Positions 1,468 through 62,386 of a stretch of 64,000 bases of DNA are shown in pieces. Below the pieces are notes generated by a model. That model saw only the letters and a list, made by a program, of their open reading frames with translations. It was not told where the DNA came from and made no database searches. The translations under genes were made by a program, and so were the position numbers. The stretch is from Octopus vulgaris (lineage: Eukaryota): the NCBI GenBank assembly GCA_951406725.2, contig OX597815.1, forward strand, positions 207,514,001 to 207,578,000. The letters are read 5' to 3'. Numbering within the stretch: position 1 is the first letter of the stretch; each line of letters opens with the position of its first letter.

Positions 1468-1600
1468 CAGCTTATGTGCATGCTAATCTGATTAAATATC
1501 TAGTTATTTAAAGTACGTCGGGAATGCATTTTTAATACAAAAATCTACCAAAAGTGCTCAACAAACTAGTTTTAAATATATATATATATATATATATATA

Positions 1601-1903
1601 TCTTTATATATAAAAGTCAAGTTGTGTGAGTGTCTGTCTCCTACGATATAGATTCCTAACTACTCCCACATTTTGCGGTGCAGTTTAACCAAAATCGGGT
1701 ATCTTATAGTCGTGATTCATATCGAGCCCTTCTGGGTATTAGCGCGCGTCTACGATGAGTCTACGATTTAAAAAAAAATTACCATCATTTTTTCCCATTT
1801 TTAATGCATTTTTTTTGCTATTATATAAGGGAAGTAACTCTCTAAAAATGCTTATATAGTTATTTCCCTTACAAACCCGAGCAACGCCGGGCGATACTGC
1901 TAG
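1601..1903 (+). mobile_element. Non-autonomous Helitron (family H-A), shortest copy
   Basis: 5' TCTTTATATATAAAAG; subterminal hairpin CCCGAGCAACGCCGGG; 3' CTAG; inserted between A and T in a (TA)n tract with no TSD; three more copies in the window. Confidence 0.9.
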
Positions 1904-2282
1904 TATATATATATATATATATATATATAATCGAGAACACGCGCGTGTTCATCTCAGAATTTGCTTAGTCTACTGAGAATGGACAGATAGATAGAAAGAT
2001 TCAATTTACTCGAACTATAAGAACGTTCTCTGAAACTAAGCCATGAGTTGATAGGTGTCAACATTCGGTTAAAAGTCACAGAATTCGAAGTTCTCATGTT
2101 GAGGGCGTCAACGAGTGTGGCTTCCATCTATCTATTACTCGCTTTGTGTGTGTAAGTAAAAGAGCGTGTGTGGAACGAAAGGAGAAAAAGACGGACAGAT
2201 GGACAACGTGATAGGTTACGGCAGGTAGGGAAAAATTTGAAAAGTAATAGATAGAATGCAAACCCACAAAAAGAAAGAAAAT

Positions 2283-5508: not shown

Positions 5509-5627
5509 GATATAAAAGATTAAATTCTATGAAATTTTTCGATGATGAGGAAATGTCTACTAAACATTTATCGAAACCAACTCTTTTAAAAGTAATTAAA
5601 GTTAATTTACTCTTCATTTATATATTC

Positions 5628-6481
5628 GGATCTTTTCCCTTTCAACGGCAGATACAGAAATTAACTTTTTGTAACTAAACACTTTCAAACTTCGGACACT
5701 GGTAGTATGTGTCATATAAAACATCTTTTACTCTTAGTGTTGTTGAGAAAAGTTTCTATTTTCAAAGTTATTTCGTGTTAAAACTGTTGTATTTCGGTAA
5801 TTTCAACCAATCAATGACGTGTATTCAGCTGAATAAAATTACTGCCATTGTTTGTCAACAACAACTATCGGCGGTGTATATTTCGTTTGCCACTGTTATT
5901 TATGACATCGTTCGTGCGTTTGTACTGGTTTTAGCTTTAGGGTTTTAGGGTTAGGGTTATGGTTTTAGGGTTTTAGGGTTGGGATTTAGGGTTAGGGTTT
6001 TAGGGTTAGAGTTACGGTAAAAAGGGAAAAATGAAGAAATTGGAGAGGAGGGGCAAAAAAGTTTTTCCGAAAATAGTAGCTGGAAAACAGGGAAAAAAAA
6101 CTAAAAGCAGTAGAAATGCACGAATAATTGTGGTGGTGCCATGAAGTAAACATGCTTCAAATACACTCGTTTATTTATACAAACGTAACTGAGATGAAAT
6201 ATGTCATAAATAACAGTGACAGATGGAAAATACACCGCCGGAAGTTGTTGTTGACGAACAGCAGCAGTAATTTTATTCAGCTGAATGCACGTCATTGATT
6301 GGTTGAAATTACCGAAATACAACAACTTTAACACGAAATAACTTTGAAAATAGAAACTTTTCTCAACAACACTAAGAGTAAAAGATGTTTTATATGACAC
6401 ATTCTACCGGTGTCCGAAGTTTGAAAGTGTTTAATTACAAAAAATTAATTTCTCGATCTGCCGTTGAAAGGAAAAAGATCT
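5628..6481. mobile_element. Fold-back MITE with ~280-bp inverted arms, 8-bp TSD and telomere-like core (Merlin- or MULE-like)
   Basis: Arms about 5628-5908 and 6201-6481 are reverse complements, which explains the mirror ORFs MSYKTSF; TSD ATATATTC at 5620-5627 and 6482-6489; starts GGATC. Confidence 0.9.
5937..6012 (+). repeat. Degenerate TTAGGG/TTTTAGGG telomere-like array inside the MITE
   Basis: TTAGGGTTTTAGGGTTAGGGTTATGGTTTTAGGG... read directly. Confidence 0.9.
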
Positions 6482-6869
6482 ATATATTCTTTTATTTCAT
6501 GCTTATAAGACTTATATCTGATTTGCCTTGCATAGGTTTATTTAAATTTTCAAACCTGTTATTTTGGAGACGAGCATCAAAGACGCTAATTCTTCTTCTT
6601 TTACTATCTGGATTTGAGCCAATAAATGAGCCCATACAGAGTTACGTGATAAAAGAGAAACAGCAGCCAAATTACTTTCAAATTACATTCTGTCATCATA
6701 AAAAAGTTTAAGACAATTTAAATTTTGTAGTACTCGGTATCTGTAATGTCATGATTAGAATGCGTAAAAGGGGCCATCCAATAAGAGTTCACCTGGGGCT
6801 AGATAAGAACACCAGAGTTTGTAATGAGGTGAACTGAAACGCGTCAAATGCTTTATCGAAATCTGTGAC

Positions 6870-15130: not shown

Positions 15131-15428
15131 TTTTTTTGTCGAACAATTCGACCCCAGTAGTTACTTTTTTAAGCCTGATAATCATATCGTTTTCCTTTTG
15201 CCGAACTGTTAAGTTACGGGGACGTAAACCACACCGGTTGTCAAGTGATGGTGGGACACACACACACACACACACACACAAACACTCTATGTATATATAT
15301 ATATATATATATATTGTAATTCGAATTGAAGTTATAGCCACGAAACGTACGTAGTCTTTTTACTTATTATATATTGTTTATTCATTTTTTTGTACTTTTT
15401 GTGATCTAGTTATATGTTTTATATTTAA

Positions 15429-15823
15429 CTAGCAGTATCGCCCGGCGTTGCTCGGGTTTGTAAGGGAAATAACTATATAAGCATTTTTTGAGATGTAAAG
15501 TATAATAGCCATCTCAATATGGCTAACCACAAAGGGGGGTGTTACTGTAGCTTTTTACGTTCTGAGATTTAATAATAAATTTTTAGAGACTTACTTCCCT
15601 TATATATGCCAAAAATGCATTAAAATGGGGAAAAATTGATGGTAAATTATTTTTTAAATCGTAGACTCATCGTAGACGCGCGCTAATACCCAGAAGGGCT
15701 CGATATGAATCACGACTATAAGATACCCGGTTTTGGTTAAACTGCACCGCAAAATGTGGGAGTAGTTAGGAATCTAAATCCAAGGAGACAGACAGCACAC
15801 AACCTCTCTTTTATATATAAAGA
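15429..15823 (-). mobile_element. Non-autonomous Helitron H-A with ~90-bp extra internal segment
   Basis: Same termini as 1601-1903 (CTAG at 15429, TC start at 15823), A|T insertion site. Confidence 0.9.
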
Positions 15824-15889
15824 TTTTATTTTTTCTTTATGATTTGGTTTATGTCTATCATTGTTTGAATTACATAATAGTGGTTTTTC

Positions 15890-45959: not shown

Positions 45960-46810
45960 ATGTTCTAAGTAATTTCCTATGATTTCGATTTCTCAAGTTT
46001 ATTGAATTTTTTAACACTAAATTTCTCACAAATTTGAATATTCATTGCATCCACTACGGAGTATTTCATTTGCAAAGTCTCTCACTTTCTGTTTCGATGT
46101 TTTTATTTCAAGTTTTAATTCACTATTTGGAAAACCGTCTGTTTATTCTATTAATGTATACGTAATGGAAAAACATTATTTATTGAATGAAAATTTTTTA
46201 ATACACCGGTATAATTTTTGTAAACAAAAAAATCTCAAGTGATTTTGTTATGGCTGTTTGTTATAACTACCCGGACCGATTTTGGCCATTTTCTTTTTTA
46301 ACTTAAAAGCCATGGAAGGAGCCTTTCCGGTAAAAATAAATAGATAAAAATAGATATTTTCAGAGGAAAAGTGAAAAATTCAAGGGAGATTTCGCTGTTG
46401 TTTCTAGCACAACCCAAACCACCCTCCCTTTTCACTCTCACATGCATTGATCCTTTTTCAGTATTTTTCTCCCATTAAACACATTTTATGGAATGATGAT
46501 GCCGAAGTAACACACGCCTGGTCCATTGGTAGAATATAAGCGACAAAATAAATTGCAATCTAAAATTTTACCTTCACCTCAATCAAGCGAAGCCGTGTGT
46601 GTAAGAAAAAACATTTTCTAACCGAAAAATACGCTATTAAAATGAATTATCGTTTACATAACACCTTTTTTTTTTTAAATAAATCCCTGTGGATAAATGC
46701 CAGAAATGACCTTTTCAGGCTCTCCAATATTTTAATTTCTGAACAGAAACAATCGGGAGTGTGGAGTTGCAAAAGATTCATAATTTCTTAAATTTTCTTT
46801 TTATAGCATA

Positions 46811-47325
46811 CTAGCAGTATCGCCCGGTGTTGCTCGGGTTTGTAAGGGAAATAACTATATAAGCATTTCTAGAAACATTTCAAAAGCATTTCAAAAACAA
46901 ATAGCAAAAAAAAAAAATGCATTAAAAATGGAAAAAAAATGATGGTAATTTTTTTTTTAAATCATAGACTTATCGTAGACATTTTTAGAGAGTTACTTCC
47001 CTTATATAATAGCGAAAAAATGCATTAAAATGGAAAAAAATTATGGTAAATTTTTTTTTAAATCGTTGACTCATCGTAGTCATTTTTAGAGAGTTACTTC
47101 CCTTATATAATAGCGAAAAAATGCATTAAAATGGAAAAAAATGATGGTAAATTATTTTTTAAATCGTAAACTCATCGTAGACGCGCGCTAATACCCAGAA
47201 GGGCTCGATATGAATCACGACTATAAGATACCCGCTTTTGGTTAAACTGCACCGCAAAATGTGGGAGTAGTTAGGAATCTAAATCGTAGGAGACAGACAC
47301 ACAACTTCACTTTTATATATAAAGA
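46811..47325 (-). mobile_element. Non-autonomous Helitron H-A with a ~100-bp internal unit in about 3 copies
   Basis: CTAG at 46811, TC start at 47325, hairpin, A|T site. Confidence 0.9.
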
Positions 47326-48177
47326 TAAATATATTTATGGGAGAAAGATATTGAAAAACATCAACCCATGCGAGAGTTATAAAGAAACGAAAAGGGTTGT
47401 CTTTGAATGTGCTAGAAATCGCCAAATCGCCCTTAAATCACTCACTTTTCCCTCTGAATTTTTTTTACCGAAAATGCTCTTATGGTTTTGAAGTGCAAAA
47501 AAATGGCCAAAATAGGTCCAGAGTTGAATGATGAGGGAGGAGGGGGTAAAAAAATTTTTCATAACTTTTTTTTCATACAAAGATGCATCCAGCCCGTCAC
47601 AAGGCTGTGGTCTAAAAAAGAAATGAGGAAACTCCCCGAAAAAATTTTCCCCACAAATTTCTTTATGATCGTAACCTATGCCGTTTGAAACTGATTTGTA
47701 TAAACTTACATGAAAAGACACCGATTTTCAAGAAAGTTATGAGAGGAAAAAGTCAGATCTTGTGAATTTTCCGAAACTCCTCTCTACCCCCTCGGAAAAA
47801 TTCTTTCCCCATAAACCCCTATATACTCTGAAGCCACAACATCTAAGCGGTATTTGTAGAAAATTTTGTTGAAAAGTATCCATTTTTCTGGATGTTATGA
47901 GGTAACAAAGTCGGAGGCGCATGCATTTGTAATAATGTCCTTTTATTTATACGATTTTTCATTTCATATTTATTTATTTCATTCATTGTTTGCAATGTCC
48001 TCTCTCCCCCGCTTCTCTCTCACACATGCTCTCTCTCTTTCTCACACACACACACACTGCAAAACTTCCAGATGGGCTGCTGAATTGAAATCTCTATGTT
48101 GCTTTGAGGGGAAGGTAAAACTTGACAAACTGCTTCTCCCTCTGTTGGACTATCGTGATGTTTGTTTTAAAAAAGTG

Positions 48178-59585: not shown

Positions 59586-59994
59586 TTCCATGAAATAAAT
59601 ACCAGTTGAACAATGGGGTCGATGTAATCGATTAGCCCCATTCGCTCAAAATTTCAGGCCTTGTGCCTAAAATAATTGGATCTTTTCGGTTTGAACGGCA
59701 GTTTTTTCTAGCGGTGTCATATGAAATTGTCACCCATAATTATGACCCTAGTATCGATCTATTGCATTTCAATCTGTGTTAGGGTTAGGAGGGAGGGTGT
59801 CTTTTTTTCTTCACAAATGTAAATAAACCCAATCTGTTTCTTAAGCGAGGGACATATTCATACGGCACCGAATGTTTTTTTTACCTCAATAGACGTCAGT
59901 GATTGGTTGAAATTGAAGAAAAAAACAACAAATATCTTACAAACTATAGAATTTTCTCAATAAAGCCAAAAGAAAAAGATGTTTTATAAACACA

Positions 59995-61358
59995 CTAGCA
60001 GTATCGCCCGGCGTTGCTCGGGTTTGTAAGGGAAATAACTATATAAGCATTTTTAGAGAGTTATAGCCAAAAAATAGCAAAAAATGCATTAAAAATGGAA
60101 AAAATATGATGGTAAATTTTTTGAAAAATCGTTGACTCATCGTAGACATTTTTAGAGAGTTACTTCCCTTATATAATAGCGAAAAAATGCATTAAAATGG
60201 AAAAAAAACGATGGTAAATTTTTTTTTAAATCGTAGACTCATGTAGACGCTTTCTTAGCCATTTCTGTTTTGGTGTCTTCAAGCCATGAAGTCGTTGTTC
60301 TAAAAGAACGCTGGTCTCCTTGACAACGCATTACGACGTTGATTTCCTTGCACTCCCTTCCCCACAGGTGCAGGTGTGAGCGTGGATGCCAACTCCGCCG
60401 CCATCGACACACGAAAAATTATGCATTAAAATGGAATAAAAAATTATGTTAAATTATTTTTAAAATCGTAGACTCATCGTAGACGCGCGCTAATACTCAG
60501 ACGGGCTCGATATGAATCACGACTATAAGCTACCCGAATTTGGTTAAACTGCACCGCAAAATGTGGGAGTAGTTAGGAATCTAAATCGAAGGGGACAGAC
60601 ACTCACACAACTACAGTTTTATATATATAGATATACATAGCGCAGTAGTGGTGAGATGTGACAGCAAAGAAAAGCATACATTCACTCTCTGCATGCAATT
60701 AGACTCGGAAAGTTCGTGAGGAACCCATTGACCCAATTTGCTGACTTTTCCGATAGCACACAGGTCTCAATGAATGGTTGAATGACCAAATCCAAGCTTC
60801 TCTGCTAGTTCCTCAACAGTTACGATGAGATTTTGTTCCACCAGGGTTTTCAGGATGTCCTTGTCGAGTTCTACAGATCTTTCAGGATGAGGCTCGTCTT
60901 CTAGGCTGTTCCAATATAGCTTTGAAAAAAATAGCTGTTAAAATCGAAATGCACTCTTCAAAACTTGCACTATGAATAAGGACAAGATAAAATTACTACC
61001 TGCTTTTATAGCAAGTTAATATAAGTAGTTTATCCCATTCCCCTCTGACTTTTAGTTCAAGCTGTTGAAAAAACCGCATTATTATATATATATATACATA
61101 CATACATACATACATATACACACACACTCTCTCTCTCACACACATGCACACATTTATATTCTGTTATTCTTTTATATGTTTCAGCCTTGAGGTTGTGGCC
61201 ATGCTGGATCATGTGTGTGTGTGTGTGTGTCTATCTGTCTGTCTGTCTGTATGTATATATGTATATGTATGTGTGTGAACAATAATATTTTCAACAGATG
61301 TGTTGCAAATGTATCTGATTGTTCTCAAGCTTCAATACTGTGTGTGTGTGTGTGTGTA

Positions 61359-61391
<33 letters not shown>

Positions 61392-61913
61392 ATGTATGTA
61401 TATGTATGTATGTATGTATGTGTGTATGTATGTGTGTGTGTATGTATGTATGTATGTATGAGTGTATGTTTACTTTATTACTAACACAAGCCAGTACGGT
61501 TATTTAATGTAAAGTCTTCCTCAAATCACTATCTCTGGCTATTTACTCTCTTCCAAGAACATTTTCACTCACACTTATGTGTTAGCTTCCCATACATTTT
61601 ACTCATGTATCTATCAGCGTGATAGAGAGAAACAAATATTACATCTAGTTTCACTTTATTCGTTGCCCACTGTGTGTGTGCGTTTGCGTGTGGTGTAAAC
61701 CAGACTAAGAAAAGCATTTGACACACACCAGAATGTGAGTTTTCTGTAAATTTTGCTTAATTGGAGTTTAAATTTTAAAAACTGGACCTGGCATGACGCG
61801 ATGCATTGTACTCTTAAAAATGGTAGGTAAATTGTAATTGAAGAAATCCTATATTGTAGATTTGTATAACTCCCAAAGGGAGGCAGATAAAATCTGCCTT
61901 TTATAATAAGAGA
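59995..61913 (-). mobile_element. Composite Helitron: foreign 5' end, captured DNA, complete H-A element
   Basis: Outer 5' TCTCTTATTATAAAA at 61913; inner H-A 5' TC at 60631; shared hairpin and CTAG at 59995; removing the block restores the MITE at an A|T site. Confidence 0.85.
60645..60904 (-). pseudogene. mariner transposase fragment
   Basis: LEDEPHPERSVELDKDILKTLVEQNLIVTVEELAEKLGFGHSTIH*DLCAIGKVSKLGQWVPHELSE; WVPHEL at 60710-60727. Confidence 0.9.
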
Positions 61914-62386
61914 TTCTACCAGTATACGAAGTTAAAAAATTTTTTAAGTTACCTAGAAATTATGTTAAAAACTGCCGTTCAAACCGAAAAGATCCAAATA
62001 ATTTTTATTGCGGTGAATTAGCTGACCCGTTAGCACGCCGGACACAAAGCTAAGCGGCATTTCGTCCGTCTTCACGTTCTGAGTTCAAAATACCGCCCAG
62101 GAAGGATGAAAGGTAAAGTCGAACTTGGAAAAGGACTAAAATATTAGAACCGAGTTGTGAAAGTCATTTCAATATTGGTAAGATTGATATTAATGTTCAG
62201 CAACAGCGTAAATAACAATGATTTCATATTTTGACATATTATTGAATAGGTCTGTGTGTCTGCAGTGATTGACAGAATTGGTTGGTTGTTGGTTAGAATT
62301 CCATGAAATAATTTAGTCGTCTCATTTGAAGCTAATAGTAAAATGTTGGATGCTCATTCGACTAATCTAGACTATATAAAATTTAC

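What the first reader, a model, noticed from the sequence alone, without database searches (positions are those of the whole stretch)
59995..61913. Composite Helitron that appears to have captured ~1.15 kb of genomic DNA, with a rebuildable empty site
Seen: a MITE (29-bp TIRs, TSD AAATAATT) is split by a 1919-bp block. Joining the flanks gives GATGTTTTATAAACACA|TTCTACCAGTATACGAAGTT, which matches the uninterrupted relative near 6384 (GATGTTTTATATGACACATTCTACCGGTGTCCGAAGTT). The block starts TC (61913, minus), ends hairpin+CTAG (59995), sits at A|T with no TSD, and holds a second Helitron 5' end at 60631. Between the two 5' ends lie microsatellites, a SINE tail scrap and a mariner fragment. Known: Helitrons can read through to a downstream terminator and transduce flanking DNA. 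Inference: the 5' end of one family used the 3' terminator of a downstream H-A element at a donor locus and moved the whole block in one event.
Basis: partly seen in the sequence, partly recalled or inferred. Interest (0 to 1): 0.78.

Follow-up and report, generated by a model that had tools for sequence, protein, structure and literature searches.

The report
Amplified two-part Helitron carrying transposon scraps
This 1.9-kb insert is one of at least 741 near-identical copies of a jumping element built from the start of one Helitron transposon, about 1 kb of old transposon scraps and a whole second Helitron, likely fused once elsewhere by a known read-through process; its relatives tend to land at sites that look like their own start.

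Summary
The anatomy is as described: a 1,919-bp TC...hairpin-CTAG block sits at A|T, without duplication, in a 399-bp MITE whose empty site occurs 9,264 times in the genome. It is not a one-off capture. The cargo/second-Helitron junction occurs 741 times; 29 of 29 other best-matching loci hold the full block in unrelated flanks. The first 280 bp are 98% identical to the 5' end of a RepHel-coding Helitron. A longer ancestral form with an undeleted mariner piece exists; this copy and a sister form are two deletion derivatives of it. The same 5' end (3,437 copies) has at least five other cargo/terminator combinations. The donor locus was not found, so read-through is inferred. Compound Helitrons of this kind are published for bats and silkworm. 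The less ordinary by-product: the clan's targets resemble its own 5' end downstream of the A|T (32 of 50 non-microsatellite sites against 5% background; 5 of 8 held out), and the identical MITE base was hit at 8 separate loci by four subfamilies. New member of a known kind; interest modest.

The parts
59670..59677 (.). left 8-bp target duplication of the host MITE
   Evidence: same 8-mer at 61996-62003
59678..59994 (.). host MITE, left part (29-bp TIR at 59678-59706)
   Evidence: empty site 9,264 exact copies
59995..61913 (-). whole compound non-autonomous Helitron (subfamily A), inserted at A|T, no duplication
59995..60631 (-). H-A1 module: complete short Helitron with own TC start, ~102-bp tandem units (60048-60248), GC-rich insert (60250-60412), hairpin (60007-60022) and CTAG
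   Evidence: 86-90% to three free H-A copies in the window; one stand-alone copy at 97.5% among 30 loci
60632..60650 (+). 19-nt spacer, likely the first bases of a SINE plus TA repeat; supplies the A before the inner TC
   Evidence: resembles SINE starts in the window; inference
60651..61083 (-). 5' half of an old mariner copy, clipped at both ends, with a 158-bp internal deletion at 60909
   Evidence: 80-89% to free full-length mariner copies; deletion versus A0; HTH_48 E=5e-20 in the undeleted form
61084..61211 (.). microsatellite and SINE tail scrap (61143-61211)
61212..61513 (-). lineage-specific cargo with (CATA)n/(CA)n tract (61339-61469)
   Evidence: 40 of 40 scored candidates 100% over 61215-61345
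61514..61633 (-). 120-bp module shared with sister subfamilies B and F2, absent from the two coding copies
61634..61913 (-). H-B 5' end, left end of a RepHel-coding Helitron; strong hairpin at 61881-61899
   Evidence: 97.9% to L226; 3,437 exact 30-mers
61914..61995 (.). host MITE, right part (TIR 61967-61995)
61996..62003 (.). right 8-bp target duplication of the host MITE

Best explanation
The block is a recent copy of an amplified non-coding Helitron made of the 5' end of a RepHel-coding family (H-B), about 1 kb of SINE, microsatellite and mariner debris, and a whole short Helitron (H-A1), likely fused once at an unfound donor locus when copying started at the H-B end and stopped at the H-A1 terminator. 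Shown: anatomy, copy number, unrelated flanks, the coding source of the 5' end, a longer form A0 and two deletion forms (A here, A'). Inferred: the fusion route, the order A0 to A and A', mobilisation in trans by a RepHel of this genome, and an age of a few million years at most. The clan inserts at A|T followed by a stretch like its own 5' end (shown statistically); this likely explains why it sits at this MITE base, in TA repeats and head-to-tail with other Helitrons.
For: 741 exact cargo/H-A1 junctions, control 0. 29 of 29 loci other than the window hold the full block in different flanks. 5' 280 bp 97.9% to L226, which codes Helitron_like_N and PIF1 and ends in a different 3' region. 16 of the first 30 of 100 hits for the undeleted mariner are A0 composites, 14 are free mariners. 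Free mariner and A0 share the 158 bp missing here, so A is derived. An A precedes the inner TC in all five junction classes that keep it, as expected if H-A sat in host A|T. A stand-alone H-A1 exists (1 of 30). Published precedent: HelibatN539 (PMC4224331, passages); flank capture in ~11.7% of Helraiser events (PMC4778049, passages).
Against: No donor: the only hit for cargo-type mariner running on past the junction is an unrelated 84% copy. The cargo is four short clipped pieces, and sister subfamilies swap modules, so part of it may have been gained stepwise. Both coding H-B copies examined are broken, at different places; the intact coding family seen most often (13 of 18 loci) has different ends, so the mobilising enzyme is not identified. 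No tree of the copies was built.
Confidence: 0.72

Rival explanations
1. Nested insertion: the cargo already lay inside an H-B element; H-A1 inserted into its internal TA repeat, and copying then stopped at the first terminator met, dropping the native H-B 3' part.
For: H-A1 sits in a TA tract after an A, the preferred target; class D keeps the native H-B 3' end together with an inner H-A 5' end.
Against: None of the 20 A-lineage elements among 90 sampled lacks H-A1; no cargo-type mariner runs on into other sequence (exact pattern only).
Confidence: 0.12
2. Stepwise assembly by template switching or gap repair between abundant Helitrons and repeats, with no single large transduction.
For: Cargo is a mosaic of clipped pieces; subfamilies B, E, F2 share segments in different combinations, and L153 joins E-type upstream sequence to an H-A1 start.
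Against: Within the A lineage all variants examined are explained by deletions from one colinear A0.
Confidence: 0.13
3. Serial independent insertions at this locus, or a one-off local capture.
For: None beyond the mixed content.
Against: 741 identical junctions and 29 of 29 full copies elsewhere.
Confidence: 0.01
4. For the target bias only: it reflects easily melted or TATA-like DNA 3' of the site rather than recognition of a mimic of the 5' end.
For: Helraiser prefers AT-rich DNA on the 3' side (PMC4778049, passage); half of the sites are TA-type repeats; positions 2-4 of the flank do not copy the element's letters.
Against: Order matters, not only composition: score 6.16 versus 3.44 (max 4.21 in 300 shuffles) and 2.71 on the mirror side.
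Confidence: 0.4

Closest known systems
HelibatN539 compound Helitron of vesper bats (PMC4224331, passages seen)
   Same: 5' end of one Helitron plus 3' end of another with intervening host DNA, then amplified
   Different: there the donor region was found and the cargo is part of a gene (KCNQ5); here the cargo is transposon debris, no donor was found, and at least five sister composites share one 5' end
Silkworm BmHel-6, -9, -10 (PMC3789558, passages seen)
   Same: new families made by joining segments of other Helitrons
   Different: different host; no target motif reported in the passages seen
Helraiser/Helibat1, canonical Helitron1 (PMC4778049 passages and section 12; PMC5876387 passages)
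   Same: TC start, hairpin and CTAG end, A|T target without duplication, read-through, head-to-tail junctions, AT-rich bias on the 3' side of the target
   Different: the passages describe the bias as AT-richness, not as likeness to the 5' end; the logo figure itself could not be seen
Recently active Helitrons in the Octopus vulgaris repeat annotation (PMC13282606, part 1 of 3 and passages seen)
   Same: 2.8-Gb genome with young Helitrons (8 families, 178 insertions listed as recently active)
   Different: no element anatomy in the text seen; its library and supplements were not seen and may already hold these families. That this genome is an octopus is my inference

Membership tests
Helitron1 (HLE1), non-autonomous | 5' TC start | tested here: met
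Helitron1 (HLE1), non-autonomous | 3' hairpin followed by CTRR | tested here: met
   CTAG with hairpin 60007-60022, conserved across copies; folding alone not above shuffles
Helitron1 (HLE1), non-autonomous | insertion between A and T, no duplication, empty site | tested here: met
   97 of 107 sites A before (9 more are tandem junctions), 106 of 107 T after; paralogous empty sites
Helitron1 (HLE1), non-autonomous | many dispersed copies with the same ends | tested here: met
Helitron1 (HLE1), non-autonomous | ends shared with a RepHel-coding element | tested here: met
   5' end 97.9% to L226/95% to L233; last 28 bp 89-93%; no intact partner copy among these two
Compound Helitron by end bypass/read-through | 5' end and terminator come from different elements | tested here: met
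Compound Helitron by end bypass/read-through | donor locus with the captured DNA in place | tested here: inconclusive
   not found by one exact pattern; similarity searches are saturated by copies
Compound Helitron by end bypass/read-through | transposition shown by experiment | not testable with these tools
   needs cells or pedigree data
Helitron2/Helentron (HLE2) | T|T target and short terminal inverted repeats (PMC11417382) | tested here: not met
   A|T target; TC/CTAG ends
Tc1/mariner (cargo) | Mos1-type HTH and homology to full-length copies with TIRs | tested here: met
   the window's own deleted piece gives no Pfam match above cut-off

The most novel reading that the evidence does not exclude
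Helitron transposase picks its target with the same sequence read-out that it uses for its own 5' end (A|T, then an A-run about 10-13 nt downstream). This would make Helitron starts, TA repeats and certain MITE bases hotspots, generate head-to-tail arrays without rolling-circle concatemers, and turn one 5' end into a factory of compound elements. The young octopus-like clan gives thousands of natural sites to test it.
Probability: 0.35. Interest if true: 0.6.

Novelty: new member of a known kind. Interest (0 to 1): 0.32.

Why it matters
The element itself moves only transposon debris and follows a published route, so it matters mainly as annotation: a young clan of about 3,400 elements with at least six cargo types in a mollusc-type genome. 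The target bias matters more: how Helitrons choose and cut the target is open, a rule tied to the 5' end is directly testable with Helraiser, bears on its use as a tool, and warns that tandem Helitrons and shared insertion sites need not mean concatemers or common descent.

Tried and rejected
Donor search: exact pattern for cargo-type mariner without the junction gave 1 hit, an unrelated 84% copy; DNA searches return only family copies. Empty allele in other individuals: inconclusive. Joints skipping the block in 4 of 4 runs come from the 9,000-copy MITE (side at most 26 letters); no listed contig bridged the right junction with 31 letters on both sides in any of 4 runs, one X1 contig had a MITE-type loose end that may be an empty allele or another copy, and a 49-nt junction contig at depth 100-350 reflects the multi-copy hotspot. 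The element near 6384 is a different family (72%), rejected as the direct empty site. MITE carrying the Helitron as one moving unit: rejected as the sole cause of the 9 shared junctions, since four subfamilies and two MITE variants are involved; it cannot be excluded among the five class D cases. A tree and divergence table of A0, A and A' was not obtained, which leaves their order resting on deletion junctions. Rows dropped before counts: elements with no terminator found in the fetched stretch (2, 2), one ending CTAT, tandems and TA-type flanks as stated. Kosek et al. 2021 is not held. Earlier scan notes: none.

Full report
Observation. The window lies in a 2.8-Gb genome of 227 contigs, likely an octopus (inference from size and repeat content; no call names it). 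The block 59995-61913 is 1,919 bp, starts TC and ends CTAG on the minus strand, and sits between A and T with no duplication. It splits a 399-bp MITE with 29-bp TIRs and an 8-bp duplication. The element near 6384 is only ~72% alike, though it joins at the same place; the MITE's own family gives 9,264 exact empty sites, and contigs of 4 of 4 runs continue across the join.

It is a family, not an event. The 449-bp cargo query gave 40 of 40 scored hits at full length, 24 of them identical, the window included; 29 of 29 other loci fetched hold the whole block in unrelated flanks. The 35-base cargo/H-A1 junction occurs 741 times, control 0. The outer 5' end occurs 3,437 times.

Source of the parts. 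The first 280 bp are 97.9% identical to the start of L226, a 6.8-kb element coding Helitron_like_N and PIF1; L233 is a second copy; each is broken at a different place. Their 3' region differs from the block's except for the last 28 bp. The last 637 bp are a complete short Helitron (H-A1), 86-90% like three free copies in the window, with one stand-alone copy at 97.5% among 30 loci chosen for likeness to the window. Between them lie a 120-bp module shared with sister subfamilies, microsatellites, a SINE tail scrap, the clipped 5' half of an old mariner (80-89% to free copies) and 19 nt that resemble a reversed SINE start.

History. A pattern for the undeleted mariner gave 100 hits; of the first 30, 16 are longer composites (A0) and 14 free mariners. 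The window form (A) lacks 158 bp that A0 and free mariners share; form A' lacks a different, longer stretch. So A0 is likely ancestral. Thirteen A0 copies aligned over the last 915 bp are 97.0-99.0% identical to this one; with the clock in PMC13282606 (JC 0.09 = 25 My) that is roughly 2 My, my arithmetic. No donor locus was found.

The clan. Of 90 complete elements from 80 stretches taken along C1 by position, 20 are A-lineage (14 A', 5 A0, 1 A), 20 B, 15 C, 14 D, 8 E, 13 F. Only D keeps the coding element's own 3' end; 76 of 90 end in a borrowed terminator, with different inner Helitron starts and different cargo. The same 5' end has therefore been joined to downstream Helitrons several times. 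In all five classes that keep an inner H-A start the base before it is A, which fits read-through or nesting better than end-to-end abutting.

Target bias. Of 107 distinct sites, 97 have A before and 106 T after; 7 are followed and 9 preceded by another Helitron end; 50 of 100 non-tandem 3' flanks are TA-type repeats; 32 of the other 50 match T-N(3-8)-TAWAA, against 4.8% of 65,143 background AT sites and 5 of 48 mirror flanks (motif chosen after seeing these flanks). Held-out: 5 of 9 rows, 5 of 8 with a duplicate counted once, mirror 0 of 9. Scored against the element's own first 15 bases, 28 C1 flanks average 6.16 versus 2.71 (mirror, n=24), 1.99 (background, n=4,000) and 3.44 (shuffled, max 4.21 of 300); a few of these flanks are starts of other Helitron families. 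Nine loci carry an H-B element at the identical MITE base: 8 separate loci (two are a duplication), subfamilies D x5, A', A, F1, each MITE in its own flanks. Against a strict mimic: flank positions 2-4 do not copy the element's letters.

Comparison with the literature. Compound Helitrons with captured DNA are described in bats (PMC4224331, passages) and silkworm (PMC3789558, passages); read-through was measured for Helraiser, whose targets are AT-rich mainly on the 3' side (PMC4778049, passages and section 12). I found no statement that targets resemble the 5' end in the passages seen of PMC4778049, PMC5876387, PMC11417382, PMC13286980 and PMC12001565 or in the listings of searches; figures, supplements and the structural paper of Kosek et al. 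2021 (not held) were not seen and may cover it. The octopus repeat library of PMC13282606 (part 1 of 3 and passages) may already contain these families.

Verdict. Observation confirmed; interpretation partly supported. New member of a known kind, interest 0.32, with a testable side result on target choice.

Noticed in passing
L218-L223, L227-L231, L234, L235 (for example G000:C2:110861300-110871200): A young RepHel-coding Helitron family of ~6.15 kb, 98-99.8% identical among 13 of 18 loci fetched, open frames up to 1,744 aa; likely recently active; several 3' flanks show the same target motif.
   Followed up: partly
window 61881-61899: Strong hairpin 15 nt from the 5' end of the H-B element (-7.4 kcal/mol, 0 of 200 shuffles as good); role unknown.
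   Followed up: no
L021-L024, L026, L033, L055, L056, L119, L138, L139, L192: Head-to-tail junctions of CTAG directly onto an H-B start, often between different subfamilies (four in a row in L192), often with the start two bases shorter; fits insertion at existing starts rather than concatemers.
   Followed up: partly
window 59678-61995; L163-L170: Host MITE family (at least 9,264 copies) has GG-starting TIRs, 8-bp duplications and internal telomere-like repeats; Merlin-like by recall, not tested.
   Followed up: no
window 5622-6487: Foldback element with 292-bp arms at 91% and a telomere-like tract, 72% related to the host MITE.
   Followed up: partly
L132, L133, L140, L165, L185, L186, L188: Subfamily F1 carries a fragment that looks like a piggyBac transposase (recalled likeness, not tested) and a ~115-bp tandem unit of variable copy number.
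   Followed up: no
L014, L107, L112 and other class D elements: Class D joins an inner H-A start to a helicase scrap and the native H-B 3' end.
   Followed up: partly
L169 and L170 (C29); L102 and L106 (C1); L190 and L191 (C1): Pairs of loci with the same element and the same flanks: segmental duplications or assembly duplicates.
   Followed up: no
window 1593-1913, 15414-15824, 46799-47333: Three free H-A Helitrons in 64 kb, with varying numbers of the ~101-bp unit; such density makes a downstream terminator easy to meet.
   Followed up: partly
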